Shown: positions 7,162-64,000 of the stretch, piece by piece
How the letters are laid out: the number at the start of each line of letters is the position of its first letter
Numbering within the stretch: the first letter of the stretch is position 1
Source: a virus
Lineage: Duplodnaviria > Heunggongvirae > Uroviricota > Caudoviricetes
Direction: 5' to 3' (one strand)
Length of the DNA stretch: 64,000 nt
IMG/VR virus record: IMGVR_UViG_2911215477_000001
Location: 38,486-102,485 of that record
The notes under the pieces: generated by a model
What the model was told of the DNA's origin: nothing
Databases searched by the model: none
Seen by the model: the letters and a program-made list of their open reading frames with translations, nothing else
Translations under genes and position numbers: made by a program

Positions 7162-7234
7162 CACCACTCCTGAGTTCTGTTCTATGTAGTTCTATTTTAT
7201 CGACGCGGTGCATTGCCACCGGGTCGTTCCGTCT

Positions 7235-7260
7235 GTGTATGTACGCGCATACGTATAATC
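7235..7260. promoter_or_regulatory. family-A motif GTGTATGTACGCGCATACGTATAATC
   Basis: Palindrome GTATGTACGCGCATAC plus TATAAT, upstream of the XRE regulator. Confidence 0.5.
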
Positions 7261-7287
7261 AATACATACGAACGCACAGAGAGAGCC

Positions 7288-7659
7288 ATGACGGAAGAAG
7301 CCCCTACCCCGCGAAACAGCAAAGCCGATCAGGAGGCAGTAGCTGACGCCCTGGTCGATCAGCTGCACAACACGATTCGCACCCAGATCGCTCGACGCAA
7401 GATCCGAGTAGCCGACATCGCAAGAAATTATGGCTGCTCACAGGTCTATATCTTCAACCTGTTGAAGAACAAGGAAAACGTATCCCTGCGCGTCTTGGGC
7501 AAGCTCGCCCTGGCGATGGGACTGCAGGTGACGCTCGCCTTTGCACCCATCGAAGGCTGGGAAGACCGCGACAACGACATCCCCGGCACGTCGGGCCGAG
7601 ACCTCGACTCCATCGACCTGGACAACGAGATCCAGGAACTGCTCAGGAACTTCGCATGA
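7288..7659 (+). CDS. XRE-family HTH transcriptional regulator
   Basis: ADIARNYGCSQVYIFNLLKNKENVSLRVLGKLALAMG helix-turn-helix; start re-called at MTEEAP. Confidence 0.6.
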   Translation: MTEEAPTPRNSKADQEAVADALVDQLHNTIRTQIARRKIRVADIARNYGCSQVYIFNLLKNKENVSLRVLGKLALAMGLQVTLAFAPIEGWEDRDNDIPGTSGRDLDSIDLDNEIQELLRNFA

Positions 7660-8575: not shown

Positions 8576-8620
8576 GTGCGAAGGGTAAGCCTGCCCTGTC
8601 TCAATCTGCGAGCGTCACCT

Positions 8621-8755
8621 GGTCGCCTGTATAAGGACAGCCTGGTCGGTGGTCGCCAGCGGTAGGTCAGCCGGTCAATGGGTCGGTTGGTCTCCGGTCG
8701 CCTGTATAAGGACTGCCGGGAACCTGGTGCCGGGGTGCCTGTATAAGGTTACGTG
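8621..8755. repeat. three direct repeats of GCCTGTATAAGG (two as the 18-mer GGTCGCCTGTATAAGGAC)
   Basis: Copies at about 8624, 8698 and 8737 upstream of the Cys-rich gene. Confidence 0.6.
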
Positions 8756-8873: not shown

Positions 8874-9467
8874 TTACGCTTCCAGTGCGAAGCGCTCCCA
8901 TTCTGCGCGCTTGCTGTCAAGCAAAGCGAAAGACTTGTCAGACACGTCAGAGCTGATCCAGTTGAGCGCACGCAGCGCCTTGAGACTGCTAGAGGCTTGC
9001 GTGGGAGCGGTCGAGCTGCCAATGGGGAGTTTCTTCAAAAGCGCATTGGTCACGCCTTTGGTCTGCAATTCGCCAGCATCACGCAGAATGCTGATCGAAG
9101 CGTAAAGCGTCACATTGGGCTTCTCACGCTGCAACACTTCGCGCCAATGGCAACCCTTGCCGAGTGCAGTCACGACAGCTTGCAGCTTGTCCTGCGCGTA
9201 GATAGCGGCGCGCATGGCGTAGGAGTGGTCAACGTGCGCAGTGTAGGCGGCGAGAATCTTCTCATCCTTCAGCATGCCGACCCACTTATCAGCGCGACGC
9301 TTTGCGTTCTTTGCGCTTGTCACTTCGTCGCTGCTCTTATTCTTGTCTGCAATGATCGCAGCAAGCTTGTCAGACTGCGCAGCGTAGTCTGCGCGGAAGT
9401 CGATAGCGTCAGCGACAGTAGCAGCGGCGACGGTCTTAGCAGCGGTCTTAGCGGTCTTAGCCATTTT
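8874..9467 (-). CDS. hypothetical Ala/Lys-rich protein (start MAKTAKTAAK)
   Basis: The ORF-track start lies upstream of the family-A motif at 9524, so the start was moved to the first ATG after the motif and a 5'UTR hairpin. Confidence 0.45.
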   Translation of the reverse strand, partial: KMAKTAKTAAKTVAAATVADAIDFRADYAAQSDKLAAIIADKNKSSDEVTSAKNAKRRADKWVGMLKDEKILAAYTAHVDHSYAMRAAIYAQDKLQAVVTALGKGCHWREVLQREKPNVTLYASISILRDAGELQTKGVTNALLKKLPIGSSTAPTQASSSLKALRALNWISSDVSDKSFALLDSKRAEWERFALEA

Positions 9468-9523
9468 AGTATTCCCTTTGGTTTGGTTTGGGTTAGTGCG
9501 GTCTTGCCCGACCGCACAAACAT

Positions 9524-9540
9524 AGTATGCGCATACATAC
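9524..9540. promoter_or_regulatory. family-A motif AGTATGCGCATACATAC
   Basis: Palindrome GTATGCGCATAC; followed on the sense strand by GTGCGGTC..GACCGCAC, a 5'UTR hairpin without a U-tract. Confidence 0.45.
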
Positions 9541-9977
9541 TTCCCGTCAACAGATTTATTCAACTTTTTTTGATGGAAAAAACATGGTGTATGTATTGAC
9601 ATACTATGCAAGTGCATGTTAGTCGCGTGCGCGCTTTCATTCTCTCTCAGTGCATGCTTTTTGCTGCGCTGCATATAGACGTCTATACGTCTGTGTGATA
9701 GTCGCGCACTCCTACGTGCGATGCTCCTATGCGACGCGCACGAGCAATCCATGGTTTTCCCACCGAGCACCGGTTTAACCAACGTCTTTCCACCGGGAGC
9801 AGGAAAGCCCTGGTGGCCGCCAAACCTAGAGGGAAACCTATGGGACGCCAACTTACCTATAGGGGCACCCATAGCCGGGTAATCCATGGGTCAACCTGCC
9901 CTATGCCCAAAAGAAAGCCCAGAGGTGATCTGGGCTTGCTGACTACGGTGGACAGGGCAACTGCAGGAGATTGAGAT

Positions 9978-10139
9978 TTAGCATGGGCTAAGGACGCTCT
10001 TTCGCTTCATGGTGCGTTGGGCGCGACGATCCAGGTTTCGGGCTTTCTCACGCTGTCGATGGCGGTGATGCGCTTCGACAAGTTCCAACGCAGAGTAGTT
10101 GGTCGTGTAACCACCATTGAATCGTTTGCTAGCTTTCAT
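9978..10139 (-). CDS. small basic protein (53 aa)
   Basis: RBS GGAGATGGAGAG before ATG; Arg/Lys-rich. Confidence 0.35.
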   Translation of the reverse strand: MKASKRFNGGYTTNYSALELVEAHHRHRQREKARNLDRRAQRTMKRKSVLSPC

Positions 10140-10510
10140 GCTATCTCTCCATCTCCATGTGTCTCTTATGTCGGGTGTCATCGCAGCTGTGAACTCGTTC
10201 AAAGTTCTTTGCGATGTGTGAATTTTGCGCTTATGCGCTATTTCCGAGAACAAATGGAACTAGGTAGAAGTCGATTTCCAGGAGAGACCCTATCAACGTA
10301 ACTCTAGGGCGAATGCCTGTCTGAAACGCCCTGTATCGAGCCCTAAGCGCCTCCTAGGGTTTCTCTATATCTGCGTCGCTCTGTAGGGCTGCGTGCGCTG
10401 TGTGACGCTGTAGGCCGCGTTTAGGAAGACCGTCCTAGGCCAGGTGTAGGAGAACCCATGGGTTAGCCGGCGACACAGTAGAAGAGCGCCCATAGGACGC
10501 TCTGTATCGC

Positions 10511-10855
10511 TCAGTATTGAACGCGCTGCAATGACAGCATCAGTTCACTGATTCGCTGCGCGAGCGCGTCGCGTGACTCGTACATCTCGCATGCAACGCG
10601 CTCTTTTTCGATGTCGTCGCTATTGCAGTAAGCGTGCAGATCACGAGTGTCGAGAAGTCCATCGGGTGATTTCTCACTCATCGAGTCGTAGACGTTCAGC
10701 GTATACATCGTTTCGTCGCTGTCGATCCACTGGTCATCAATCATCGTGTGCTGTGCTGCGATCACATGCACGACATAGCGTTCTTGAATCAGCATGAACG
10801 CGAAATTGTAAAAATCATCATGGTCTTGCACGTTTGCGACAGTGAAAGCTTTCAT
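10511..10855 (-). CDS. early-type small acidic protein (start MKAFTVANV)
   Basis: Preceded by the family-B cassette (CCATGG..GTGCCGATAGTCGG..CTCACTCACA); the ORF-track start MTTFNV lies inside the cassette. Confidence 0.5.
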   Translation of the reverse strand: MKAFTVANVQDHDDFYNFAFMLIQERYVVHVIAAQHTMIDDQWIDSDETMYTLNVYDSMSEKSPDGLLDTRDLHAYCNSDDIEKERVACEMYESRDALAQRISELMLSLQRVQY

Positions 10856-10939
10856 AGTTGCATGCTCTTGCGTTGTGAGTGAGCAAGCAGTGTCGCGTTG
10901 GATGCGAAACCCGACTATCGGCACGTTGAAGGTTGTCAT

Positions 10940-10975
10940 GCCGGAGTAACCATGGGTGATCTGCAGACAAGAGAA
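10940..10975 (-). terminator. hairpin terminator at the cassette boundary (GAGCGCC..GGCGCTC)
   Basis: Stem-loop followed by a T-rich tract on the minus strand. Confidence 0.45.
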
Positions 10976-11001
10976 AGCGCCTACAAGAGGCGCTCTCGCT
11001 A

Positions 11002-11277
11002 TCAGACGTCGAGGTCGATCTCAAAGTCAGACCATGAATCGCGCTTGTCGAACTCAGCGTAAGCCTGCATGAGGGCGCTCGATGCTTGCACGACATTCAG
11101 ACCCAGCTGTAGGCATGCGTTGCGACTGATCTGCACGTCGTAGAACAGGTCATTGAGGTCGTCATCTTCACGAACGAGGTCAAGCGTCGCGAAGCGAACA
11201 CCATCGCTCGTGACTTGAAAGGTCGTCGTATCGTTCGCTTCGTCGATGATGATTTCGAAAAGAACCTTGATCTGCAT
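11002..11277 (-). CDS. early-type small acidic protein (start MQIKVLF)
   Basis: Family-B cassette upstream; CACTCACTCACAGAGCAAAACGCT immediately 5' of the ATG. Confidence 0.5.
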   Translation of the reverse strand: MQIKVLFEIIIDEANDTTTFQVTSDGVRFATLDLVREDDDLNDLFYDVQISRNACLQLGLNVVQASSALMQAYAEFDKRDSWSDFEIDLDV

Positions 11278-11414
11278 AGCGTTTTGCTCTGTGAGTGAGT
11301 GTGTAAGCATCATCTGTGAGGTCGCAACGCCCGAGAATCGGCACGATGCCGGTGATTCCATGGGTTATCCATGCGCTCGATGCGAGAAGAGCGACGCTAG
11401 GTCGCTCTGTAGGT

Positions 11415-11741
11415 TCAGTCGTTCTCGCGATCAATAACCATGCGTTCGACGACGTGTTCCATCGCTGCTGCGATGCTGTCGTGCGTCTCATCGAGGAGCA
11501 CGCAGTTGACTTGAGAGAACACGTCAACACCTTGGTCGAACGAGAGCACGCGATACTGTCGCGTTTCGAGGTTCTGAAGGAGGAAATAGTGATTTCCTTC
11601 ATAGATCTTCGCTTGCACGCTGTAGGTTGTGTCAGCGTCATCGACGACCTCAGCGTTGAAATCTTGCGCGAGCAAGTAGCGAACCAGCGCGATGTGATTC
11701 GTGTCGATGTCGTTCGTGTCAATCTTCGCTGCAATCTTCAT
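11415..11741 (-). CDS. early-type small acidic protein
   Basis: Family-B cassette upstream (CCATGGATTCGCCGGCATG..CCGATTCTCGG..ACACTCACATGAG). Confidence 0.5.
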   Translation of the reverse strand: MKIAAKIDTNDIDTNHIALVRYLLAQDFNAEVVDDADTTYSVQAKIYEGNHYFLLQNLETRQYRVLSFDQGVDVFSQVNCVLLDETHDSIAAAMEHVVERMVIDREND

Positions 11742-11905
11742 ACGTAGGTCTCATGTGAGTGTGCGTCGCTGCATTGCGACGAGACACATGATCGAGTTGG
11801 ACGCGAGTTCCGAGAATCGGTGTGTTTGAGGACTCATGCCGGCGAATCCATGGGTTGCCCAGGAGGTGCGCATGAGAAGAGCGACACGAGGTCGCTCTAT
11901 AGGAC

Positions 11906-12187
11906 TCAGAGGGCTTCGAGCACGTCTTCGTCAACACCAGCTTCGCAACAGTTGAACTCGAAAACACCAGCTGCGAGAGACTTCATGTGCTCACGAGCGC
12001 GCTGTGCAAGTTCCAGCTGCTGCTCTTTAGGACGTTCTGCGATTGCTTCGCTGAGGTGATAGCTCAAGCGCACGAAGAGGTCATACTGCTCGCCCTCACT
12101 CTCTTGAAACGCGAAGAGCGCGAGGTCGTAATCGACGTAGACGAGAGTGTTGTTGAGGAACTTTTCGACGTACTGCTGAGCGTTCAT
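11906..12187 (-). CDS. early-type small acidic protein (start MNAQQYV)
   Basis: GACTCACTCACAGAGAAATAGACCT immediately 5' of the ATG; family-B cassette upstream. Confidence 0.5.
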   Translation of the reverse strand: MNAQQYVEKFLNNTLVYVDYDLALFAFQESEGEQYDLFVRLSYHLSEAIAERPKEQQLELAQRAREHMKSLAAGVFEFNCCEAGVDEDVLEAL

Positions 12188-12377
12188 AGGTCTATTTCTC
12201 TGTGAGTGAGTCGCTATCTGCGACACACGCATGATCGTGTTGGATCTGATTTCCGACTATCGGCACTCTTGAGGCCAGGATCACCCATGGTCTATCCATG
12301 GCTTGCCCTGACTCTCACCCAAAACAAAGGCCCGATGGCACTCACTCCATCGAGCCTCTGTCCCAGCTGACTTGTCT

Positions 12378-12409
12378 CCCCTACTGAGTCCTGGTCATTC
12401 TCAGTAGGG
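12378..12409 (-). terminator. hairpin CCCTACTGAG..CTCAGTAGGG downstream of gene 12453..12908
   Basis: 10-bp perfect stem; no clear U-tract. Confidence 0.35.
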
Positions 12410-12452
12410 CACAACTAATAAGGTGGTCATGTCCTTGTGGTCCCTTGGCCGC

Positions 12453-12908
12453 TTACAGGGCGACTGCGTGGATGCCGGCTTCACCGTTCATGGCGCGCTT
12501 CATCAGCTCAGCCACGAGTTCTTCGGTCGTCAGGGCGCTGACACTGGTGGTCGCTTCCACTGCCGGACCCTGGTTCGCATGGTCGTCGAAGGTCTCCAGG
12601 ACATCGAGGATCTCCTCCGCGATACCGTCGATGCGGGGCGTCACCAGGTCGTTCGGACGCTTGCTGGGCTGACCCATCACGATGGGACGCAGCAGATCCT
12701 GCAGCAGTGCCAGCTGGACGTTGCCTTCCTCGTCACCCTTGGCCTTGCGGAACTTGGCGAGCATCCCGGCGACCTGGTGGAGATACGCACCGTGCATCAG
12801 CACTTCCTCGGCGTGATGAGCCAGCTCCTGACGCAGCTCGTTCTCGGTCATGTTGCGGACCATCTCACCGTGCATCAACAACTGGTCTTTCTTCTGCTGC
12901 TCGTTCAT
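12453..12908 (-). CDS. hypothetical protein (start MNEQQKK)
   Basis: Start re-called downstream of the family-A motif at 12955-13000; RBS GAGAGAAACAGAGCC. Confidence 0.5.
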   Translation of the reverse strand: MNEQQKKDQLLMHGEMVRNMTENELRQELAHHAEEVLMHGAYLHQVAGMLAKFRKAKGDEEGNVQLALLQDLLRPIVMGQPSKRPNDLVTPRIDGIAEEILDVLETFDDHANQGPAVEATTSVSALTTEELVAELMKRAMNGEAGIHAVAL

Positions 12909-12954
12909 GGCTCTGTTTCTCTCTGTGCGCTGCGCGCTTTGTGTTTGTGTGCTT

Positions 12955-13000
12955 AGTGTATGTATGCGCTCACATATCGTCAAGCGCATACGTATGGGAT
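12955..13000. promoter_or_regulatory. family-A motif, extended palindrome GTATGTATGCGCTCACATATCGTCAAGCGCATACGTATGG
   Basis: Inverted repeat around the GCGC core. Confidence 0.5.
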
Positions 13001-13294
13001 CTACTTGGCAGTGCGTGACTCGTGGCGGTGCATGAAGACGATCAGGCCGATCCACATGACCAGGCCAATCACCCCACCCACGGCCATCATTGCATCGACC
13101 TCGCTGGTGTTCATCAGGACACAGAGGGCCAAGATGAGATAGAGGCTCAGCAGCACCACGTCCAACAGGTTGGCACCTCCCTTCTTGGCCGGCTTCCAAC
13201 CCTGTGCCATGCGGTAGACATCACCTGTGGCCTGAAAACGGGTCATGCCTGCCTCGATAGGAATGCCGGCGTACTGGTGTGCAATCACGTTCAT
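13001..13294 (-). CDS. small membrane protein (2 TM)
   Basis: The ORF-track start MTCR..MHIH includes the motif; start re-called at MNVIAHQ; hydrophobic LLSLYLILALCVL and VGGVIGLVMWIGLIVF. Confidence 0.45.
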   Translation of the reverse strand: MNVIAHQYAGIPIEAGMTRFQATGDVYRMAQGWKPAKKGGANLLDVVLLSLYLILALCVLMNTSEVDAMMAVGGVIGLVMWIGLIVFMHRHESRTAK

Positions 13295-13551
13295 AGCGTT
13301 TGCTCGCTGCGTTGTGTGTATGTGCATACATAGTAGCGCATCAGCAACAACCGACAATCGGCACGTCATAGGACTATTGGCGGCCCCTCCATGGGTTATC
13401 CATGGCTCACCCTAGGGCGGCTCCACCCAAAAAAGTGCCCCTGCGAGCGGGCAAGCTCCAGGGGCGTGGTCGAACAATAATCAGAGCCCAAAGGGAGGCC
13501 GAGGACGGGAGTCTTTGGCCCACCTACCCTGTTACTGCAGACAGGGTGATT

Positions 13552-14013
13552 TTAGTCGGTTTCGCGGAAGGGGGCCACCTTGTACTGGTCGTGGATCTGG
13601 ACGAACCAGGTCTCGGTGATGAAATCGAGGATGCTATGCACCAGGCGCAGGTCAAGCGTCCCCTGGTCCTCGTCCGTGGTCTCCTGGTGAATGCCCATCC
13701 AGTCGTTCCGGAAGGACAGAGGAAACAGGACTTTGGTGCCATTGATGGTCAGCTCCATCAGGACAATATCCGGGTCACGCATCAGATCACCATTGGACTC
13801 GCCGTAGCTGGCAATGGAGTACGTGGGCTGGCCATAGTGGTTGCTGATGACCTCGACCAACACATCCATCATGCCCTGGGACTTGAACCGCGTATTCCGG
13901 CGATGACCTTCCATCAGCAGATCGAACTGCTCATAGGCCCAGGTCATACGGCCAAAGGTTCTGTCTTGTGTGGCCAGCTGCTCGATGGCAGTGATCACTT
14001 TATGGTCCGTCAT
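13552..14013 (-). CDS. hypothetical protein
   Basis: Partial family-B cassette upstream (CCATGG x3, CAGATAGTCGG). Confidence 0.45.
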   Translation of the reverse strand: MTDHKVITAIEQLATQDRTFGRMTWAYEQFDLLMEGHRRNTRFKSQGMMDVLVEVISNHYGQPTYSIASYGESNGDLMRDPDIVLMELTINGTKVLFPLSFRNDWMGIHQETTDEDQGTLDLRLVHSILDFITETWFVQIHDQYKVAPFRETD

Positions 14014-14289
14014 GCTGTGCTCCGTTGTCAGTTGCTGCGATGAGCAAATGATGATTGTGGCGCATGACCCCGACTATCTGGGAGAGATCAGATACCTGCC
14101 CTAGGCTGGGCCATGGTTGTGCCATGGGCTCACCTGCGGTCTATCCATGGTCTGCTGATGGTTGGCCCACCGGCCCTATGGTTTGTGGCTGCTCTACGTG
14201 TATAGAGAGATAGAGATATGCACGCTTGTCCCTAGAGCCTATGGGAAAACCTATGGTCGGCCATCCATCAACCTATGGCACCTTGGCTG

Positions 14290-14560
14290 CTGGTCCACCC
14301 TAGTCCCAGTGATCATGTCCCTAGTTTTGATTAGTTATAGGGAAATATAGAACCCGTAGGCCGCCTATTTCCCAAGAATCACTGCTCAATAAACCTATTT
14401 GTTATGGCCGTCTAAATAGATACGTTTACTTTTGGCCATCCAGAACATGCTCAAAACAGCCAAAAACCATGTTGACGTACTGTTTGAGGGGTTAATGACT
14501 AATTTCCCTATGCTAATAAACATGAGGGAATGGCCAACCAGTGTGCCTAGTGCCAAGGCC
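14290..14560. other. AT-rich ORF-free tract with host-like promoter elements
   Basis: AT-rich tract, e.g. TTGACGTACTGTTTGAGGGGTTAATGACT; no coding signal. Confidence 0.4.
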
Positions 14561-14569
14561 AACCGCTCC

Positions 14570-14720
14570 CATGGTTCAACCATGGATAGACCTAGGGGAG
14601 AGTGACGGTTGGCTCATGGGATGGCCGGCTATGGGAGAGCCATGGTTGAGCAGAGGAGGTGCCAATACAGGGGAAACCATGGATAGACCATGGGCAAGCC
14701 TAGGGCCGGGTTGGCACCAC
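14570..14720. repeat. cluster of CCATGG / CCTAGG / ATCCATGG palindromic motifs
   Basis: At least 6 CCATGG and several CCTAGG within 150 nt; the same ATCCATGG motif heads the family-B cassettes. Confidence 0.5.
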
Positions 14721-15361
14721 TATCCCTATAGGGAACCAGGTCATCTGGAGCCGGGAGTATCTCTTTCTCTATGGAAGTGCCTATCTGATGCCGGAGCTAT
14801 CTGACTGACCTAGTACATGTGCTACGTAGGCCAGGATTAGGAAGACCGTGTTTGCTCCGGATGAGCGACAGCTCGGAAACTAGGCAATCTGAGAACTCAG
14901 GATATGACGCCCCCTACCCCGTGACGATGCACTGAGTAGGGACACATCCCGGCCTTCAGACTGCCTTGGGGAGTTTGACTCCCTCCCGGTGGTGATCCAC
15001 AGGGGCAACCTTCAACCTCATGCCATTGCGACAGTCACTGTTGTTCCTCGGTGCGCATGAGCCTGGGCAAGCCAGAACAGGTAACACCGTGTCACTCACC
15101 CGCCTCGCTGTCGCACCTATCGGTGACGCCCGAGTCCTGTCTGCGGGAAATCCTTCATCAGGGTCATTGCTACAAGAGCTGCCAGTGGCCGAACGTATGG
15201 GTGCCGATAAACCGCTAGCTGACCTGAGTATGTTAGCGCGTACATACCGTGGCGGGCAATGCTGGATAGAGCATGGGTCGGCCGGACTTGGGAGCGCCTG
15301 GACATGGAGGGGCCATGGGAAACCCTTGCAATATATGTGGCGCGGGCCGGCACCGTCATTT

Positions 15362-15560
15362 GCCCTTCCCTTCCACAGGCACCTCGGCTCTCCCATCCCT
15401 CTATACCCCGGCCTGTCTCTTCCCATACCCCTATGCGTAGGCCATCCCTACTGCTACTCCCCATAGCTCTCTCCCCTAGGGTGTGTGTGCTCCTCTATCC
15501 CTTCTTCCCTATACCCACAAGTCTTCTCCTGCATCCCTATAGCCGGACACAATACCGACC
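15362..15560. repeat. polypyrimidine (C/T-rich) tract with degenerate CCCTATAC-like repeats
   Basis: Roughly 200 nt of almost purely C/T plus strand. Confidence 0.5.
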
Positions 15561-15594
15561 TCGACCTGGTGCGATTCGTGTGTGTCTGTGTCGT

Positions 15595-15795
15595 TCTCTA
15601 TGCGTGGGATGAGCGCTCGTTCTTTGTATCGTTCGTGCTGCTTATCTCTATGCGAGAAACGCGCTAGATCGACGCGAGAGACATTTCCCTTATGCGAGCG
15701 CTGTGCTGCTACTCGTTCTATGCGGGGAACGTCACAGTGATCGTTTTAGCGTTCGACGATGTTGACGATATGGGTGTGTTTCTCATGCGGGAGTG
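15595..15795. repeat. five iteron-like direct repeats TCTATGCG(G/A)G
   Basis: Copies near 15598, 15656, 15690, 15720 and 15783 with 30-63 nt spacing. Confidence 0.55.
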
Positions 15796-15839
15796 TTGAT
15801 TTCGCGGAAAGCGTGTCAAGTTCCCTTTACATGTGTTGG

Positions 15840-15975
15840 CGATCGAGGCGTTTGCGAATTTAAGTTATTGATCCGGCAGGTTTATTTGGAATTTTGGTGG
15901 GTTCGATACAAATAATTTCTGTAACGGAGGGACTTAACAGATTCGTTGAGTGACCGCTTTGCAGGAATTGACCAA
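15840..15975. other. AT-rich tract (possible DNA unwinding element) next to the iterons
   Basis: gaatttaagttattgatcc..tttatttggaattttggtgggttcgatacaaataatttctg. Confidence 0.4.
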
Positions 15976-16011
15976 CTTGCGCCCTTACATCAACACCTAT
16001 AAGGCTTAAAC

Positions 16012-16386
16012 ATGAATCAACATTTCAGTAGTAACGACCCGAACCACCGCATCCAGATGGCACACGTCAAGGAGCTGTCCACCGACAAGCTCAGTGGCGA
16101 GTCCTTCAAGTACACCTTCCATGACGTGAAGAAGCTCTGGGAGGGACACTATGGCGGTCCATCGGGCTGGGCACAGAAGACCGCCAAGGAGCGCGACGAT
16201 TACCTTCAGGGATTGAAGGACTGTGCCAACGCAGTGAAGAAGATCGCGGAGATGGAGCCGGACATGGGACACAAGCGCAGCATGCTTGCTTGTTACCACG
16301 GGACCATCTGGATCTATGCCTGGATCAGCCACCTGACCGTCGACGGTCAGTTCTGCGATGACCTCTTGGACGCAGTTGGCTCCTAA
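16012..16386 (+). CDS. hypothetical protein
   Basis: Only plus-strand ORF in this region; followed by a bidirectional terminator. Confidence 0.4.
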   Translation: MNQHFSSNDPNHRIQMAHVKELSTDKLSGESFKYTFHDVKKLWEGHYGGPSGWAQKTAKERDDYLQGLKDCANAVKKIAEMEPDMGHKRSMLACYHGTIWIYAWISHLTVDGQFCDDLLDAVGS

Positions 16387-16425
16387 CCAAAAGAAAGCCC
16401 GGTCATGTGCCGGGCTTCTCTGTGT
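16387..16425. terminator. bidirectional rho-independent terminator
   Basis: AGCCCGG-tcatgtg-CCGGGCT hairpin with an A-tract 5' and TCTCTGTGT 3'; ends the long minus-strand gene array. Confidence 0.7.
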
Positions 16426-16437
16426 AAGGGTGGATGG

Positions 16438-16794
16438 TCAGTCGTAGTCTTGAACCTCGCACTGGATCGCCCTGTCGAGGATCAGTCGCATCTTGTCGCC
16501 TTCATCCCGCTCGCGGTCAGTGCCACCCTGTAGACGCTGGGAGATCAGCTTGAGCTTGTCGAAGTCCTCAGCCTCGATGCAGTAGTCGATGTAGATCCTG
16601 GTGGGTTCCCCGATTGTTGGCTCGGGTGCATCGAGTATCCGGCGAATGTCCTCGTTCGGGTCTGTCGAAAGCTCGCCCACCTTCAATAGTGCTGGGTCAT
16701 CCCAAACGCCTTGAATCCTCGCCCTGATGGCTTGAAGCTTCTCGTCCTGGCTCAGCGTCACTTGATGCTCCTTAGCTGCCCCTGTGTAAGGCAT
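16438..16794 (-). CDS. hypothetical protein
   Basis: ORF with a coupled arrangement. Confidence 0.4.
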   Translation of the reverse strand: MPYTGAAKEHQVTLSQDEKLQAIRARIQGVWDDPALLKVGELSTDPNEDIRRILDAPEPTIGEPTRIYIDYCIEAEDFDKLKLISQRLQGGTDRERDEGDKMRLILDRAIQCEVQDYD

Positions 16795-16997
16795 TCCATG
16801 TGCCCGCTCTTCCAGCCAGGCACTCCCTCTTTGTCTGCGTAGACCCGTTCGGTCCCCAGGTAGCCGTCGAACCGGACCCAGGGTGCTTCAGAGGTGCTCT
16901 GCACGACGGTTCCACACATGCCAGGTTCGATCCACTTGGGATCGTCCCGGTCGATGGACGCTACACAGACGCGATCACCTGCTTTGAACTTTACCAT
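16758..16997 (-). CDS. hypothetical small protein (KOW/SH3-like KFKAGDRVCV)
   Basis: Start ATG embedded in the upstream gene's EGRW-stop codons. Confidence 0.4.
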   Translation of the reverse strand: MVKFKAGDRVCVASIDRDDPKWIEPGMCGTVVQSTSEAPWVRFDGYLGTERVYADKEGVPGWKSGHMECLTQGQLRSIK

Positions 16998-17302
16998 CGC
17001 CCCTCCCCTGCCGCTGGCTTGAGCTTGGGAACACTGTCAGCGTCGCCATAGCTGACGTTGAGGTTCCTGACGATCTGCTCCACCACGCTGCGCTTGACCT
17101 CATGGCCGTTGGTTTTGTTGAACTCGCTGATGACCCGCTGGACGATCCAGTCGAGGTTCAACTCATGGGTCGTCTGACGAGCACGCTCCTGCACCGCCTC
17201 CTTGATCCACTCCTTCACCTCGGCCTTCGTGATGCCCAGGTCAGCAATGTGTTGGCGCAGGGCGAGCGTGATCTCCCGGCGTCCTACCTCGTCAGCCTTC
17301 AT
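16991..17302 (-). CDS. hypothetical protein ending ..GEGRW
   Basis: C-terminal tail shared with the 20.8-23.4 kb paralog family. Confidence 0.4.
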   Translation of the reverse strand: MKADEVGRREITLALRQHIADLGITKAEVKEWIKEAVQERARQTTHELNLDWIVQRVISEFNKTNGHEVKRSVVEQIVRNLNVSYGDADSVPKLKPAAGEGRW

Positions 17303-21459: not shown

Positions 21460-21941
21460 CAGCGCCCCTCGCTCGGGTTGTCGGTCGGCTTGGGCTTCTT
21501 GAAGACGATCCTCTGGTTCTGCTCGCGATACATCCGACGTTTGTAGCGCTCCGCTTCCGTCAGCTTGGACTTGGGCTCATAGAGCGGCAGGAAGACATTC
21601 GGGTCAGCCTCCAGGAACTCCGGAATGGGCAGCTCAGCCTTGCCATACACCCAGCGCAAGGCAGCCTTGGGGTAAAGGAGCGTCTGCAGGCCGTGGGCGT
21701 CGTAGACAGCCTCAATAGCCTTGCCATTGGGACCGCCACTGGTGTCGAAGTAGACCGCGATTGAGTCCGCTGCGTCGATGCGGATCGACTTCAGCTGGAT
21801 CGTGATGTTGTCGTCCTCGTGAAAGTAGTCCTCGACCACCGACATGTTCGGGTGGATCTTGCTCTTCTTCAGGGCGAAGCCGTACTCAGCCAACTTCTCT
21901 GCGAGCTGCACCCAGTCGGCGCACATGAACTTGATTACCAT
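21456..21941 (-). CDS. tandem paralog family member (ends NPSEGRW)
   Basis: ADWVQLAEKLAEYGFAL; ATGA coupling. Confidence 0.5.
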   Translation of the reverse strand: MVIKFMCADWVQLAEKLAEYGFALKKSKIHPNMSVVEDYFHEDDNITIQLKSIRIDAADSIAVYFDTSGGPNGKAIEAVYDAHGLQTLLYPKAALRWVYGKAELPIPEFLEADPNVFLPLYEPKSKLTEAERYKRRMYREQNQRIVFKKPKPTDNPSEGRW

Positions 21942-22342
21942 TGCCCCTCCAGAGGGTTCGTCTCGACAGCCATCGACATCGTTGCGGTGGCGAATTTCAT
22001 ATCGGGTCCATCATCGAGACTGGACTCCCAGGTAGCTTCAAAGGCCAGGCGACGGACGACTTCAAAGAAGTCCTGGGCGAACTTGTCGTAGGTGTCGCGC
22101 TGCTGCGGGAACAGGAGCGTCAGATCGTGCCCGTTGATGCCATCGTTGTTGACGACCCGATGTATGACCTCAGCCGTCAGCGACACGCCTTTGAAGCTGC
22201 CGTGCTCACGCCGGAAGCTGATCGTTCCAGGCCAATCGGGGCTGGGCGCGCTCTTGAGGATCGCGAAGTGCGTGTCCTTGCAAGCAGCCTCCAGGTTCTT
22301 CCCGTTGATGCGGACTTGGAGCTTCTTGTACTTGATCACCAC
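21935..22342 (-). CDS. tandem paralog family member (ends NPLEGQW), GTG start
   Basis: Start GTG inside the upstream QW-stop codons (caGTGGTGAtc). Confidence 0.45.
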   Translation of the reverse strand: MVIKYKKLQVRINGKNLEAACKDTHFAILKSAPSPDWPGTISFRREHGSFKGVSLTAEVIHRVVNNDGINGHDLTLLFPQQRDTYDKFAQDFFEVVRRLAFEATWESSLDDGPDMKFATATMSMAVETNPLEGQW

Positions 22343-23058
22343 TGACCCTCCAGCGGGTTCGTCGGGCGTGCTGGTTCAGCAGGCTTCGCGAAGCCATAGC
22401 GCTCGCTGAACCGCTTGACCATTTCAGGGTTACGCTCCATCTGGTCCAGGCGGGCTTTCAGCTCCTCGACCTCGATCTTCTTCCTCAAGTCTTTCTCGTA
22501 AGCCGCCTTCTTGACCGCCTCAATCGAGCCCTCCTCGATCTCTCCGAACTCGTCGAAGATCATCGAGATACCCTTCATTCCACGGATCTCCGACTTCTTG
22601 CTCGGAAGGCCAATGGCTTTCGCAGCCTCTGCCAGCTCGTCGTAGATCTCCTTGGCCGGCTTGGGCTTGGGCAGATGGGTGGTCTCGTCCTTACCAGGCG
22701 AAGCCAGGCCCATCAGCTCGTGAATGCTCTTGCGCTTAGGCATAGGAATGCCGGGCGCACCGATCTTGATGAGGGCGTAATCATTCAGCGCCCTGCGCAG
22801 ATCCCTATCCGGACCCTCGTCGTAGATGTCCGGGTAGTGGATGTGCAGATCCCAGTGCTCTGTGTCTCCGCCCATCGCAGCCATTGCTGCCGAGTCGATC
22901 CGGATGTTCCGCTTGAACTCACCCGTGAACGTCGCGTAGCGCATCTGGATCTGGATGTAGCCGTCGCTCAGCTTCTCCTCCAGGATGTTGAACCCGCACT
23001 GATCAACCACAGCGCGCAGCTTCTCAAGGGAAATGTTGTATCGCGTGGTCATCACCAA
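22336..23058 (-). CDS. tandem paralog family member (ends NPLEGQW)
   Basis: SLEKLRAVVDQCGFNIL N-terminal block. Confidence 0.5.
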   Translation of the reverse strand: MVMTTRYNISLEKLRAVVDQCGFNILEEKLSDGYIQIQMRYATFTGEFKRNIRIDSAAMAAMGGDTEHWDLHIHYPDIYDEGPDRDLRRALNDYALIKIGAPGIPMPKRKSIHELMGLASPGKDETTHLPKPKPAKEIYDELAEAAKAIGLPSKKSEIRGMKGISMIFDEFGEIEEGSIEAVKKAAYEKDLRKKIEVEELKARLDQMERNPEMVKRFSERYGFAKPAEPARPTNPLEGQW

Positions 23059-25504: not shown

Positions 25505-25554
25505 GTCGTATGTACGCGCTGCGATATGTCAGCGCGTACATACTATTAACGACG
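25505..25554. promoter_or_regulatory. family-A motif, long palindrome GTATGTACGCGCTG-cgatatgt-CAGCGCGTACATAC plus ACTATTAAC
   Basis: 13-bp perfect arms. Confidence 0.5.
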
Positions 25555-44035: not shown

Positions 44036-44065
44036 AAAAGACGACTGCCGACTATCGGTGCATCT

Positions 44066-53951: not shown

Positions 53952-56900
53952 TTACGAAATTAGCTCGGCGGCCCGGATGAAGATTGCGTCGAGAGTTTCT
54001 TGTTTCGCAGGGTCGAACGCGACCATGCCGGGATTGATGCCAAGGATGATGCTCGCGTCCAGCTTGCGGTCGAACACCACCTTCCCAGCCAGGTCCATGA
54101 TGGATCCACGTTCGTCAGGGCATAGCGTGCGCGAGACGTTCGAACCCAAGGCGATGATCAGCCCCGGCTTGAGGATCTCGATCTCCTTGTCCAGCCAGGG
54201 CCGTGACGCGGAAATCTCCTCGTTCGTGATCGTCTTGTCCTTCTTCGGCACCTTGAGGAACGAGGTGATGTAGAGGTCGTTCGTGGTCAGCCCAGCTGCC
54301 TTGATCGCCTCCTTCACCGGCAGTGCCGAGTCAGATTCGAACAGCTTGCCCTTCTTCTCGTCCTTCGACGATGGAGCCTCCAGGATCACCATGATCTTGG
54401 GTTTGGAGCCGAGCTTAGGCAGCGGTGGCGCTCCCAGTGCGTCTCGCATCTCCAGCAGCGTCCGTTTGAGGATGTCCAACACCGGCCCGTCACAGACGAT
54501 GGGTCGATCCACCCTGACAGACGCCGCGATCAGACCAGGTAGGCGCTCCAGCTGAGCCTTCACGCGATCAGGGTGCCTGGCTGGCAAAGCTCCAGGCGTG
54601 ATCGAAGCGAACGCTCCCACCTCCTCCAGGAACTCCCGTTGGCGCTTGTTGCACTTGCCAGGCACATGCTTGTCGAAGTGAGCCCGGTCAATGAACTTGC
54701 CGCCCGCAAGCTCCCTGCCATCCAGCACCGCCTTCTCGGAGATCTCCGACAGCCCCTTCACTCGGGAGATGGGCGCTACGAGAGCGTCACCCACCCGCTT
54801 GAAGCCATAGGTCGATTCGTTGACGTCGGGCGGGAGGATTTCAATGCCCCGCTTGGCTGCATCCGCAACCAGGCCAGCCAGCTTGTCCTCCTTGTGGATT
54901 TCCAGTGACGCAGCGTAAAAGGCGTGGGGGTAGTGAACCTTCAGATACATCGTCCAGACGGAGATGATCGAGTAGGCAACCGAGTGGCTCTTGTTGAAGG
55001 CGTAGCCCGCGAACAGCACGATCTTGTCCCACAGCTCCTTAGCCTGGTCTTCACCCATGCCGGCGACATCGACGCAGCCTCGGACGAACTTGTCGCCCTG
55101 CTCTGCCATCTTGTCCTTGTCCTTCTTGCCGATGGCCTTACGGACGTTATCTGCTTCCGCGAGGGTGAATCCCGCAAGGTCGCGGGTGAGCTGCATAACC
55201 TGTTCCTGGTAGACGATGACGCCCTTGGTCGCCTTGAGCGCGGGCTCCATCGCTGGATGCTCGTAGTGCTCCATGACGATGCCCTGGCGGACGTTCACGT
55301 AGTCGTCCAGCAGCCCTGAGTCCAAGGGGCCAGGTCGGAACAACGCAGTCGCAGCAGCAAGCTCTTCGAAGGTCAGGGGCTCGTACTTCGCCATGTCCTT
55401 GAGCAGCTTTCGCATGCCGCCCGATTCGAACTGGAAGACGCCGACAGTCTCGCCCCGCCCGAAGGCAGCCATCGTCTTCTCGTCGTCCAGGTGGAGATCG
55501 AGCAGGTTTATCCGCTCGCCATAGTCATGGAAGATCTTGTCGATCGCTCGACGCAGGATGTCCAGGTTGGAGAGGCCCAGCACGTCGATCTTGACCAGCC
55601 CCTGCTCCTCGACCACGCGCTTGTCCCAGTTGACCACAGTGTCTTCCCCGCGATCCTCGACGACAGCCATGCCCTTGATGGGTCGGCCAGCCACGATCAC
55701 ACCGGCAGCATGCGTGCCCATACTTCGCATCGTGCCCTCGACACGCTGGGCGATGTCGAACGCCTGCGGGTGTTTCTTCTGGTAGGTCTGAAGCTCGGGC
55801 ATCTTGTCCAGGGCTTCAGCCAGGCTCATCGACTGCCCGTGCTCCTTCGGGATGTAGGAGCTGCAGGCGTAGTCCCGGTCAGGGATGTCCAGAGCCTTGC
55901 CCACCTCACGCAGCGCAGACGGGGCACCCAGCGTGTTGTAGTTGGAGATCGACGCTACAGCCGCCTTCCCGTAGGTCTCGCGGAGGTAGGTGATGATTTC
56001 GTGCCGGCGCTCAGACATGAAGTCCAGGTCGGCGTCGGGAAGATCGAGACGGCTCGGGTTGATGAAGCGTTCGAACAGGAGGTCGAAGCGGATCGGGTCC
56101 ACCTCAGTAATACCGATCACGTAGGCGATAAGACTGCCGCCCACAGATCCTCGACCAGGACCGACCGCGATCCCGTTGTCCTTGGCCCAGCGACAGATGT
56201 CTGCCACGAGCAGGAAGTAGCCACAGAAGCCCAGCTCCTTCAGGACCATCAGCTCGGTCTTGAGGCGTGCCTGGTAGACGGGCAGCAGCGAAGGATCGGG
56301 CTTGTAGCCCAGCACAGGCTTGTCGATGCGGTCGCTCCAGTATTTCTTGCACTGCCTGACCAGCTCGACAAACTCGTCCTCTGCCATCTTCGGGATGGAG
56401 ATGTCCGCCTTGGTCCAGCGATACGAGAGCATGGGTGTCGGGTCGATGGGTAGCACCGTTCCCCAAGCCAGACCCATCTCAGTAGCCAGGTCGAGACTTC
56501 CCATCACCCCTTCCATCAGGGTGTCGAAGTCGCGGATGTGGAGTCCGGCGATCTGCTTCGGGGTCGCACCGTGGGAGTAGCGAAGGTTCCTAGTGATGGC
56601 GTTCACCACGTCACGAGCTTTCGCGTCCTCCTCGGTCGCATACATCGCCATGCCGTTGATGATGACGCCATCGCTGCCGACAATCGTATGCTCCAGGACT
56701 CGTGCGTTCTGTCGAGCGAATACCGGGGACGCTACTGCGACAAGCTCTAGCACAAGCTGAGACGCGCTTACGTCGTCGCGCATACGCTCAATGAATGCTG
56801 TCACGTCGTCGTCAGACATGACGCTAGAAAACGCGCTCAGAGCGTCGCCCGTGGTGACGACGAAGTTGCCCGTCTGCACAAGGCGACGGAAGGCGAACCA

Positions 56901-57224: not shown

Positions 57225-57232
57225 GGTCTTAT

Positions 57233-63761: not shown

Positions 63762-64000
63762 TTGATCGTCTTCTGGCGATGCTTGCGAAACCAATCTAGC
63801 GTCGCTCCCAACTCGTAACGAACGATTCGGCCCGTCTGGATAAAAGGCGGGCCTTTTCTTTGCCAGCGGTTGTTGATGAACCACTTCTCGCTCAGTCCGA
63901 GCAGTGCGGCAATCTCTTCGGTCGTCAAAGGCATGTCAGGCGCAGTCCTGGCCATGCGCTCCACACGCTCGTCCAGCGTGAGCGTTCTCAGTGCTCCCAT
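63758..64000 (-). CDS. AlpA/excisionase-like HTH protein; start may lie beyond the window edge
   Basis: LTTEEIAALLGLSEKWFINNRWQRKGPPFIQTGRIVRY, an AlpA/MerR-type motif. Confidence 0.45.
   Translation of the reverse strand: MGALRTLTLDERVERMARTAPDMPLTTEEIAALLGLSEKWFINNRWQRKGPPFIQTGRIVRYELGATLDWFRKHRQKTIN

What the first reader, a model, noticed from the sequence alone, without database searches (positions are those of the whole stretch)
14160..16010. About 1.85-kb ORF-free control region with iteron-like repeats, AT-rich tracts and a 200-nt polypyrimidine tract: candidate replication origin or early promoter hub
No ORF in this stretch has RBS or start support. It contains an AT-rich block (14290-14560), a dense cluster of CCATGG/CCTAGG palindromes (14570-14720), a strongly strand-asymmetric C/T-only tract (15362-15560), five direct repeats TCTATGCG(G/A)G spaced 30-63 nt apart (15595-15795), and a second AT-rich block (15840-15975). 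The region lies exactly where the leftward early array and the long leftward replication array both originate or terminate. Iterons next to an AT-rich unwinding element is the classic origin architecture. The polypyrimidine tract could alternatively encode a structured ncRNA.
Basis: partly seen in the sequence, partly recalled or inferred. Interest (0 to 1): 0.65.

Follow-up and report, generated by a model that had tools for sequence, protein, structure and literature searches.

The report
Gene-free early control region of prophage
A 2-kb stretch without genes inside a 110-kb virus integrated in a Dyella soil bacterium is a conserved control region, packed with evenly spaced short palindromes that also sit in front of every early viral gene; it is more likely a transcription-control hub than a classic replication origin.

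Summary
The window is part of a ~110-kb temperate siphophage integrated next to tRNA-Lys in Dyella telluris CP060412.1. Region 14014-16011 is non-coding: every ORF has negative codon-usage score, none has a family hit, and reading frames are not kept in a close relative. The "polypyrimidine" tract is 71% pyrimidine. The "iterons" are an 8-nt core at irregular spacing, and two of five are lost in the relative.

The dominant feature is a lattice of CCATGG/CCTAGG palindromes spaced exactly 11 bp apart. All 19 CCATGG sites of the 64-kb window lie in 9749-15313, in a genome that lacks 28 of the 64 palindromic hexamers. Nine lie in this region; most of the others lie upstream of the six early promoters. 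In the relative the hexamers are kept or swapped within class while the spacers diverge.

The region also holds the first early promoter, one copy of a palindrome found at many phage promoters, and a 96%-conserved block. That block carries a leftward promoter-like site, followed by a conserved strand-specific 85-nt RNA hairpin.

Best reading: an early-transcription control region whose binding protein is unknown. An origin, most plausibly transcript-primed, is not excluded.

The parts
14048..14076 (-). Promoter of the first early gene g6 (13552-14013): -35 TAGTCG (14076-14071), 17-nt spacer, -10 CATCAT (14053-14048). The inferred start is near 14041.
   Evidence: The same -35 TWSTCG / 16-17 nt / -10 pattern occurs at all six early cassettes (17 nt at five, 16 nt at g5) and at 44054; the underlying CCGATAGTCGG palindrome also occurs at 20564. 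The block is 75% identical in the relative. Promoter assignment is by sequence pattern only.
14100..14150 (.). Left array of 11-bp-phased palindromes: CCTAGG 14100, CCATGG 14111, CCATGG 14122, degenerate CCTGCG 14133, CCATGG 14145. Centres lie at about -61.5 to -106.5 from the g6 start.
   Evidence: In the relative, the three CCATGG are kept while the spacers differ.
14175..14278 (+). Block of four same-orientation 7-bp variants CCTATGG (14175, 14238, 14250, 14272).
   Evidence: 4 of the 5 CCTATGG in the window lie here. The relative lacks exactly 22 nt (2 x 11) of this block.
14290..14560 (.). AT-rich core (GC 0.44; 14321-14520 has GC 0.38, the lowest in the 64 kb). It is flanked by the two palindrome arrays, which are in inverted orientation to each other.
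   Evidence: (inverted repeats I1, I2). It is conserved in long identical blocks in the relative (82-94%). No clear sigma-70 promoter was found.
14569..14705 (.). Right, G-rich array: triplet 14569/14580/14591, single site 14640, triplet 14677/14688/14699. The two triplets are 108 nt apart.
   Evidence: In the relative, 14569 and 14688 change CCATGG to CCTAGG, and 14591 and 14699 change CCTAGG to CCATAGG. The site class is kept while spacers diverge.
14733..14881 (.). Conserved non-coding block (86-92% identical in the relative). It includes a 24-nt repeat (14826-14849) shared with the second gene-poor region at 10410-10433.
   Evidence: (D13).
14882..14966 (-). Long imperfect hairpin that is stable only on the minus strand, because of G-U pairs. 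It is a candidate RNA element: terminator, processing site or antitermination element of a leftward transcript.
   Evidence: Minus strand: dG -49.9 kcal/mol, z -5.8, 0 of 200 shuffles as stable. Plus strand: z -1.1. The relative gives dG -63.3, z -5.5. All 30 pairs are kept, with 2 one-sided pair-preserving changes and a diverged loop.
15000..15390 (-). Best-conserved block of the region (86-98% identical per 50-nt bin; about 96% overall). It is non-coding and has no excess RNA structure. Inferred to be the body of a leftward non-coding transcript or leader.
   Evidence: Two 1-nt indels are present, substitutions are not 3-periodic, and ORFs are not kept in frame. Folding z-scores range from -1.1 to +2.5.
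15202..15247 (+). Degenerate copy of the early-promoter -35 palindrome (GTGCCGATAAACCG, 15202-15215), followed by a 20-nt palindrome GTATGTTAGCGCGTACATAC (15228-15247). The palindrome belongs to the family found at many promoters of this phage.
   Evidence: The family matches 14 times in the window against 0.34 in shuffles. The 15228-15247 copy is 100% conserved in the relative.
15330..15359 (-). Leftward sigma-70-like promoter: ATGACG, 18 nt, TATATT. A CCATGG lies just downstream at 15313.
   Evidence: The sequence is identical in the relative. The downstream CCATGG is replaced there by CCTAGG. This is a pattern match only.
15362..15560 (+). C-rich tract (71% pyrimidine). It consists of degenerate palindrome-type motifs (CTCTCCCCTAGG, CCCTATA) in inverted orientation relative to the G-rich array at 14586-14740.
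   Evidence: Inverted repeats I10, I12, I17, I24; composition. Identity to the relative falls to 52-63% over 15400-15549 (72% at 15550-15599); pyrimidine richness is retained by eye.
15597..15790 (+). Five same-orientation (T)CTATGCG-type repeats. They resemble one half of the promoter palindrome GTATGCGCATAC.
   Evidence: In the relative, two are kept, one carries a core change and two are lost.
15826..16011 (+). Second AT-rich block and upstream region of the rightward orphan gene 16012-16386. TATAAGG lies at 15998, 7 nt before the ATG, and there is no SD.
   Evidence: It is poorly conserved (46-58%), as is the gene itself.

Best explanation
The region is the non-coding control region at the head of the early-gene array of an integrated temperate phage.

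Shown by the sequence:
- It carries the promoter-like site of the first early gene.
- It holds about 13 exact and many degenerate CCWWGG palindromes set on an 11-bp lattice (GG-N5-CCWWGG-N5-CC), that is, on one face of the helix. The same lattice sits 58-107 bp upstream of each of the six early promoters and in a second gene-poor region at 9465-10510, and nowhere else in the window.
- It has one copy of the palindrome found at many promoters of this phage.
- It has a highly conserved block with a leftward promoter-like site, followed by a conserved strand-specific hairpin.

Inferred:
- A sequence-specific dimeric protein, not identified, binds cooperatively along these lattices and co-regulates the early promoters. 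These promoters have a non-canonical -35 and so probably need help or are tightly controlled.
- The 2-kb region, with its three inverted blocks of sites around an AT-rich core, is the main loading or anchoring site of that protein.
- A leftward non-coding transcript of about 0.45 kb, or a long leader, starts near 15323. It either ends at the hairpin or is processed there.
For: Site distribution:
- All 19 CCATGG sites of the window lie in 9749-15313. None occurs in the other ~56 kb, where about 15 are expected. The window as a whole lacks 28 of the 64 palindromic hexamers, so these sites are an exception to that avoidance.
- Site-to-site distances are 11 nt (9 times) and 22 nt (5 times).
- The pattern GG-N5-CCWWGG-N5-CC matches 14 times against 0.32 expected, and all matches lie in 9877-15325.

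Link to the early promoters:
- Six early cassettes share one layout: terminator, lattice, CCGATWSTCGG/-35, a 16-17-nt spacer (17 in five, 16 in g5), -10.

Comparison with the close relative (77% identical over the region):
- Hexamers are kept or swapped within class (CCATGG to CCTAGG, or CCTAGG to CCATAGG) while spacers diverge.
- One indel is exactly 22 nt, which is two lattice units.
- CCATGG and CCTAGG are again concentrated in the two gene-poor regions of that phage: 14 of 15 sites within about 200 nt of them.

Other elements:
- Block 15000-15390 is about 96% identical yet non-coding.
- The hairpin is significant and conserved on one strand only.
- No homologous triplet arrays were found in one representative genome for each of 185,579 species. 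This argues against a site for a widespread host factor.
Against: - No binding protein was identified. The flanking orphan gene and the small basic ORF at 9978-10139 have no homologues. The latter models as a single helix.
- The promoter-proximal lattice position varies from -58.5 to -70.5, so it is not at one fixed phase.
- All promoters are pattern matches without transcript data.
- About 1.5 kb of the region is not needed for the two flanking promoters, so some other cis function (origin, DNA entry) may coexist.
- The relative's genome is mosaic, with other stretches of 98-99% identity. The 96% block could therefore partly reflect recent exchange rather than constraint.
Confidence: 0.5

Rival explanations
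1. It is the lytic replication origin. One version: initiator-binding arrays flank an AT-rich unwinding element. The more plausible version for a phage with a T4-like replication set: a transcript-primed (R-loop) origin, in which the conserved leftward promoter sends RNA into the AT-rich core.
For: - The two lowest-GC stretches of the 64 kb lie here.
- Inverted palindrome arrays flank the 270-bp AT-rich core, which is itself conserved.
- The phage encodes homologues of UvsW, UvsX, gp32, SbcCD and a DnaE polymerase, and no recognisable initiator was found.
- The region lies between the replication and early modules.
- Distant relatives are related to phage-plasmids (PMC7969092).
Against: - The same palindromes sit at six promoters, which fits regulation better than initiation.
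- The proposed iterons are irregular and not conserved.
- There is no DnaA-box or IHF-site excess.
- There is no cumulative GC-skew extremum at the region.
- The AT-rich core lies about 760-1030 nt downstream of the candidate promoter. This is far more than I recall for T4 origins and somewhat more than the roughly 555 nt I recall for ColE1 (from memory, not checked here).
Confidence: 0.22
2. It is mostly a graveyard of decayed early cassettes. Promoter and operator modules were left behind after genes were lost, and only the edges still function.
For: - The -35-type palindrome at 15202-15215 sits only 12 nt from the nearest -10-like hexamer, instead of the 16-17 nt seen in working promoters.
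- The sequence after the 14677 triplet resembles the g6 promoter in inverted orientation but with a 15-nt spacer.
- The C-rich tract is a degenerate inverted copy of the G-rich array and evolves fast.
- Cassettes are clearly gained and lost: g1-g4 are absent from the relative, which carries a Phd/YoeB pair instead.
Against: - Three exact triplets persist, and the site class is preserved in the relative.
- Block 15000-15390 is about 96% identical and the hairpin is kept.
- Avoided palindromes other than CCATGG are still absent here, so the DNA is under the same selection as the rest of the phage.
Confidence: 0.13
3. Its main product is a regulatory non-coding RNA of about 0.45 kb, transcribed leftward from about 15323 and ending at the hairpin. 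It might be an antisense or immunity RNA, or a cis-acting antitermination element that lets polymerase read through the terminators that follow early genes.
For: - The promoter-like site is conserved.
- The body is 96% conserved and non-coding.
- The hairpin is strand-specific, conserved, and followed by UGUUUUC in the relative.
- Terminator hairpins precede most early cassettes (seen upstream of g1-g5).
Against: - There is no Rfam match.
- The body shows no excess structure.
- No compensatory changes were seen, with only two sequences available.
- The U-tract is weak in this phage (UAGUUUCC).
- This reading explains only about 450 of the 2000 nt.
Confidence: 0.1
4. It is a cis-acting DNA-entry or end-related site comparable to the injection-stop region of phage T5, or a packaging site.
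For: [quoted passage not shown] It also has a second, smaller repeat region carrying inverted copies (10.1101/866236).
- Here two repeat-laden gene-poor regions bracket a variable set of early genes and share inverted and direct repeats.
Against: - There are no paired DnaA boxes.
- The element is temperate and integrated.
- The terminase genes lie about 16 kb away.
- The phage's physical ends are unknown.
- The early proteins are 91-196 aa with no family hits except DUF6908 in g6.
Confidence: 0.05

Closest known systems
Dispersed-operator regulons of large temperate phages and plasmids (P1 C1 operators, mycobacteriophage L5 stoperators, RK2 KorB operators). Comparison from my own knowledge.
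   Same: One short motif recurs at many promoters of one element. This holds for the CCWWGG lattice (six early promoters plus two gene-poor regions) and for the GTATGCGCATAC-type palindrome (14 matches in 64 kb).
   Different: The lattice sites are 6-bp palindromes in phased arrays of 1-4 units lying upstream of the promoters, not single 13-17-bp operators over them. They are concentrated in a 2-kb gene-free region. No cognate protein is known.
Ribbon-helix-helix or ParR-type arrays (R1 parC 11-bp iterons, CopG, omega heptads). Comparison from my own knowledge.
   Same: Short sites repeat at one helical turn next to promoters, which suggests cooperative binding of dimers on one DNA face.
   Different: No ribbon-helix-helix or ParR-like protein was found. 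The only small basic candidate models as a single helix. The arrays are short and scattered over 5.5 kb rather than forming one centromere.
Phage T5 injection-stop / Repeat Region 3 (10.1101/866236)
   Same: [quoted passage not shown] A second repeat region lies on the other side.
   Different: There are no DnaA-box pairs. No long terminal repeat is known. The phage is temperate with a DnaE-type replisome. No A1/A2-like proteins were recognised.
Iteron origins (lambda ori, plasmid RepA origins) and transcript-primed origins (T4 ori(uvsY), T7, ColE1). Comparison from my own knowledge.
   Same: Repeated sites flank an AT-rich stretch. There is a conserved promoter upstream, and T4-like replication proteins are present.
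   Different: The repeats are not 17-22-bp iterons at regular spacing. No initiator gene, DnaA boxes or skew signal were found. The distance from promoter to AT-rich core is long.

Membership tests
Iteron-type replication origin | Three or more direct repeats of about 17-22 bp at regular spacing | tested here: not met
   The TCTATGCG repeats share only an 8-nt core (about 13 nt loosely). Spacings are 50, 42, 28 and 65 nt. Two of five are lost and one is altered in the relative.
Iteron-type replication origin | Adjacent AT-rich unwinding element | tested here: met
   14321-14520 has GC 0.38 and 15826-16025 has GC 0.405. These are the lowest in the window.
Iteron-type replication origin | Initiator gene overlapping or next to the repeats | tested here: not met
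   The flanking genes are a DUF6908 protein and an orphan with no homologue. No Rep-like hit appeared among the replication-module proteins scanned. The scan was not exhaustive.
Iteron-type replication origin | Host factor sites (DnaA boxes, IHF) | tested here: not met
   Only one one-mismatch DnaA box lies in the region, and the window is below shuffle expectation. There are no IHF consensus sites.
Iteron-type replication origin | Replication starts here (marker frequency, autonomous replication, skew switch) | tested here: inconclusive
   There is no cumulative GC-skew extremum at the region. 
T5-type injection-stop region | Large untranslated region dense in repeats and palindromes beside early genes | tested here: met
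   The T5 description comes from 10.1101/866236.
T5-type injection-stop region | Paired DnaA boxes in inverted-repeat modules | tested here: not met
T5-type injection-stop region | Location inside a long terminal repeat; A1/A2 pre-early genes | not testable with these tools
   Only the integrated form is available and no virion ends are known. The early proteins are 91-196 aa with no family hits except DUF6908 in g6. No direct A1/A2 comparison was run.
Multi-site operator regulon | The same motif at several promoters of one element, far above chance | tested here: met
Multi-site operator regulon | Motif kept in relatives while flanks and spacers change | tested here: met
   Class-preserving swaps occur at 14569, 14591, 14688, 14699 and 15313. 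CCATGG is conserved at 14111, 14122, 14145, 14580, 14640 and 14677. This rests on one relative only.
Multi-site operator regulon | Cognate DNA-binding protein | tested here: inconclusive
   Helix-turn-helix proteins exist at 7213-7659, 62455-63177 and 63351-63761, but none could be linked to the motif. No protein is shared with unrelated contigs that carry similar arrays.
Structured non-coding RNA | Match to a curated RNA family | tested here: not met
   No Rfam match at E up to 1 over 13000-17000. No tRNA or tmRNA.
Structured non-coding RNA | Stability beyond shuffled controls, and covariation | tested here: inconclusive
   Only the hairpin at 14882-14966 (-) stands out (z -5.8; relative z -5.5). 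All 30 pairs are kept, with 2 one-sided changes and 0 compensatory changes, from two sequences.
Protein-coding gene | Codon usage, conserved frame, synonymous bias | tested here: not met

The most novel reading that the evidence does not exclude
The two repeat-laden, gene-poor regions (14014-16011 and 9465-10510) bracket the exchangeable early-gene cassettes. An unknown protein reads an 11-bp lattice of CCWWGG palindromes and, through these regions, organises the whole early array as one looped or insulated domain. That domain would be silenced in the lysogen and fired as a unit on infection. The lattice sites would be held by selection against a genome-wide purge of palindromes. This would be a new regulatory architecture for large temperate phages, and possibly the functional counterpart of the unexplained repeat regions of T5.
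Probability: 0.15. Interest if true: 0.75.

Novelty: new variant of a known kind. Interest (0 to 1): 0.5.

Why it matters
Phage genomes are tightly packed, so 2 kb without genes, partly conserved at 96%, signals an important cis-acting function.

The locus gives a clean, testable case of a short palindrome being kept in one place while the rest of the genome purges it. It also gives defined promoter cassettes for early genes in a poorly studied group of ~110-kb DnaE-encoding phages of Xanthomonadales, some of whose relatives are related to phage-plasmids.

Finding the lattice-binding protein would explain how a set of small acidic early proteins is switched. It could also shed light on similar unexplained repeat regions such as the T5 injection-stop region.

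Tried and rejected
- DNA similarity of the region to phage and plasmid collections, near and distant modes: no match.
- Relatives of the flanking proteins in IMG/VR, GenBank phages and species-representative genomes: none.
- Scanning public collections for the triplet pattern gave one viral, six genomic and 24 metagenomic hits. Many have 11-bp CCATGG arrays, but they have unrelated sequence and no shared proteins, so they were not usable as homologues.
- Distant relatives ANB28 and JGB6 have the same gene order. They have smaller gene-free patches with other repeats (GCTGAACG; GGGATGG at 10-bp spacing), no alignable DNA, no CCATGG clustering and no GTATG...CATAC palindromes. They did not help with function.
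- Whole-block RNA folding of 14740-15360: not significant on either strand.
- The small basic ORF 9978-10139 as a ribbon-helix-helix candidate: the single-sequence model is one long helix.
- The excisionase-like protein as lattice binder: the attachment-site repeats beside tRNA-Lys are GGGCTACAG, not CCWWGG.
- Minus-strand ORF 15359-15117, which has an SD-like sequence: rejected as a gene.
- PDB sequence searches and defence-system models for early proteins: nothing.
- Literature search for CCATGG operators in phages: nothing relevant.
Full report
**Context**

The window comes from the chromosome of Dyella telluris (CP060412.1); window coordinate w equals record coordinate w + 103258. It is part of a prophage of roughly 110 kb.
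- To the right, the phage ends beside a host tRNA cluster (tRNA-Lys), followed by ftsH.
- To the left of the window lie terminase, portal and tail genes.
- The window itself carries a DnaE-type polymerase, ribonucleotide reductase, and homologues of UvsX, gp32, UvsW, SbcCD and RuvC.
- The nearest described phages are Stenotrophomonas ANB28 (50% amino-acid identity in DnaE), Xanthomonas JGB6, Rhizobium RHEph10 and Pseudomonas nickie. Some members of that wider group are related to phage-plasmids (PMC7969092).

The gene map is:
- a 46-kb leftward replication and nucleotide-metabolism array, ending at 16438 with a terminator at 16394-16418;
- one rightward orphan gene (16012-16386);
- the gene-free region 14014-16011;
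- a leftward array of small genes (g6 13552-14013, down to g0 8874-9464).

Most of these early proteins are acidic (pI 4.0-5.0) and have no known family.

**Is the region non-coding?**

Yes.
- The GC frame plot is flat.
- Every ORF of 33-156 aa has negative codon-usage log-odds (one is +0.015 per codon), whereas the neighbouring genes are positive.
- There are no Pfam or PHROG hits.
- NCBI annotated no protein between the flanking genes.
- In a close relative, two 1-nt indels and non-periodic substitutions break all frames. In the only ORF with an SD-like sequence (15359-15117, minus strand), every substitution changes the amino acid.

**The dominant feature: an 11-bp palindrome lattice**

CCATGG occurs 19 times in the window, and all 19 lie in 9749-15313, 9 of them in the region. 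It does not occur at all in the other ~56 kb, where about 15 are expected.

This stands out because the phage avoids palindromes to an extreme degree. 28 of the 64 palindromic hexamers are absent from the whole 64 kb, including from the early region. CCATGG is the single exception, and only here.

The spacing is regular:
- Distances between CCATGG/CCTAGG sites are 11 nt (nine times) and 22 nt (five times).
- Four exact triplets occur against none in shuffles.
- The extended pattern GG-N5-CCWWGG-N5-CC matches 14 times against 0.32 expected, always within 9877-15325.

Inside the region the sites form three blocks:
- a left array (14100-14150), followed by four CCTATGG variants up to 14278;
- a right, G-rich array (14569-14705), in inverted orientation to the left one, across a 270-bp AT-rich core;

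**Link to the early promoters**

Each of six early cassettes (g1-g6) has the same layout on the minus strand:
- the terminator of the previous gene (seen upstream of g1-g5);
- one to three (four at g6) lattice sites;
- a palindrome CCGATWSTCGG whose TWSTCG serves as the -35;
- a 16-17-nt spacer (17 in five cassettes, 16 in g5);
- a -10 of the form GATSAT, CATCAT, GACACT or TACTAT;
- a leader of roughly 25-40 nt.

The lattice centres lie 58-107 bp upstream of the inferred starts. The same promoter type occurs at 44054 without a lattice, and the CCGATAGTCGG palindrome also occurs at 20564.

A second palindrome family, GTATG(..)GCGC(..)CATAC, sits at or just after the -10 of many promoters across the window. 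It matches 14 times against 0.34 in shuffles. One copy lies in the region at 15228-15247.

**Comparative evidence**

The early protein g0 has a 93%-identical homologue on a 63.6-kb contig assembled from run SRR11658448. That contig is a close relative of this phage. Window 15848-13427 aligns to it at 77% identity.

Lattice sites:
- CCATGG is kept at 14111, 14122, 14145, 14580, 14640 and 14677.
- CCATGG becomes CCTAGG at 14569, 14688 and 15313.
- CCTAGG becomes CCATAGG at 14591 and 14699.
- The 5-nt spacers differ freely.
- One indel is exactly 22 nt, which is two lattice units.
- In the relative, CCATGG and CCTAGG are again concentrated in the two gene-poor regions (14 of 15 sites within about 200 nt of them).

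This is the pattern expected of binding sites.

Conservation elsewhere in the region:
- The AT-rich core is conserved in long identical blocks (82-94%).
- Block 15000-15390 is about 96% identical.
- The C-rich tract is only 52-63% identical.
- Of the five TCTATGCG repeats, two are kept, one is altered and two are lost.

The relative lacks cassettes g1-g4 and carries a Phd/YoeB pair instead. The early cassettes are therefore exchangeable, while the bracketing gene-poor regions persist.

One caution: the two genomes are mosaic, with other stretches at 98-99% identity. The 96% block is notable but not unique.

**A candidate leftward transcript**

The conserved block contains a sigma-70-like site on the minus strand (ATGACG, 18 nt, TATATT, at 15359-15330) that is identical in the relative.

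About 360 nt downstream lies an 85-nt imperfect hairpin (14966-14882):
- On the minus strand it is very stable: dG -49.9 kcal/mol, z -5.8, and none of 200 shuffles is as stable. On the plus strand z is -1.1.
- The relative keeps it: dG -63.3, z -5.5.
- All 30 pairs are retained, with two one-sided pair-preserving changes and a diverged loop. In the relative it is followed by UGUUUUC.

The 320-nt body has no excess structure, and there is no Rfam match.

I infer a leftward non-coding RNA or leader. I cannot decide whether the hairpin terminates it, is a processing site, or modifies polymerase.

**Origin hypothesis**

For:
- the AT-rich minima;
- the arrays flanking them;
- the position between the replication and early modules;
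- a T4-like protein set with no recognisable initiator.

Against:
- irregular, unconserved "iterons";
- no DnaA or IHF sites;
- no cumulative GC-skew extremum, only a broad local plateau at 12-15 kb;
- use of the same sites at six promoters.

A transcript-primed origin remains possible and needs experiments.

**Comparison with known systems**

The logic resembles multi-operator regulons and phased-repeat binding by small dimeric regulators. The gross anatomy resembles the untranslated repeat region of T5. No defining feature of an iteron origin, other than AT-richness, is met. The T5-specific DnaA-box pairs are absent. No cognate protein was found, so I do not file the region as a member of any named family.

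**Verdict**

This is a real, conserved, non-coding early-control region with an unusual palindrome lattice. Its mechanism is only partly resolved. I put confidence at about 0.5 for the regulatory reading, 0.2-0.25 for an origin role (the two could coexist), and smaller weights on the decay, RNA-only and entry-site readings.

Noticed in passing
window 1-64000: Extreme palindrome avoidance. 28 of the 64 palindromic hexamers are absent from the whole 64 kb (for example CCCGGG, CCGCGG and GGGCCC, each about 41 expected from base composition), and 7 more occur once. This suggests long exposure to many restriction systems.
   Followed up: partly
window 3295, 5211, 7237, 9525, 12958-12991, 13318, 23652, 25508-25543, 27754, 37896, 38572, 44010, 49281, 53357, 59709, 61912: A palindrome family, GTATG(TA)(C)GCGC(A)TAC(ATAC), sits at or just after -10-like elements of many promoters in all modules. 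The strict GTATG-N0-8-CATAC pattern matches 14 times against 0.34 in shuffles; some listed sites are looser variants. It is essentially absent from the lytic relatives ANB28 and JGB6 (0 or 1 match in the parts examined). It is therefore a candidate operator of the prophage repressor, analogous to the dispersed C1 operators of P1.
   Followed up: partly
window 10917, 11337, 11816, 12259, 13357, 14076, 20564, 44054 (all minus strand): A promoter class in which the -35 is embedded in the palindrome CCGATWSTCGG, followed by a 16-17-nt spacer and a GATSAT-like -10. The 20564 copy has the palindrome but did not match the full promoter pattern.
   Followed up: partly
window 8613-8748 and 15998: Three direct repeats of GGTCGCCTGTATAAGG lie in the gap after the DHFR gene. 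The only other TATAAGG in the window lies 7 nt before the start codon of orf 16012-16386. This may be a distinct promoter class.
   Followed up: no
window 9465-10510: A second gene-poor region of about 1 kb has the same motif vocabulary (CCATGG x3, CCTAGG x2, CCTATGG) and repeats shared with the studied region. It contains an unannotated 53-aa basic ORF (9978-10139, minus strand) that is intact and the same length in the relative. That ORF has no homologues and models as a single helix.
   Followed up: partly
window 10464-12316 versus L041 7214-8062: Early cassettes g1-g4 are absent from the close relative. The relative carries a Phd/YoeB toxin-antitoxin pair at a different junction. The early array is a site of cassette exchange.
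   Followed up: partly
window 53952-57317 (minus strand): The DnaE-type polymerase carries a C-terminal uracil-DNA-glycosylase-superfamily domain (residues 971-1072).
   Followed up: no
L011 8732-9120 (just right of the window): The prophage end abuts tRNA-Lys(ctt) and carries about eight GGGCTACAG / CTGTAGCCC repeats. These are likely integrase or excisionase arm sites. Next to them are an AlpA/excisionase-like gene (window 63758-63955, minus strand) and an HTH-like gene, XRE-type by eye only, with no family scan run (63351-63761).
   Followed up: partly
L017, L018, L019, L023, L024/L027/L028, L037, L038, L001/L020: Unrelated metagenomic and viral contigs (GC 0.38-0.71) also carry arrays of CCATGG/CCTAGG at 11-bp spacing. 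In L023 the array lies in about 870 bp with no ORF called ahead of a run of small genes. No proteins are shared with this phage. This may be convergent use of the same lattice.
   Followed up: partly
L003 17383-18081 (ANB28 105382-106080); L040 about 21500-22460 (JGB6): The distant relatives have smaller gene-free patches at the syntenic position. These hold ten or more GCTGAACG repeats in both orientations, and GGGATGG repeats at 10-bp spacing. A related string, CATGGGATGGCC, occurs at window 14614-14625.
   Followed up: partly
window 9907-9937 and 16387-16417: Two similar terminators (CCAAAAGAAAGCCC...GGGCTT; 77% identical over 31 nt). The 16387-16419 copy is 100% identical in the relative, although the gene beside it is only about 40% identical.
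   Followed up: no
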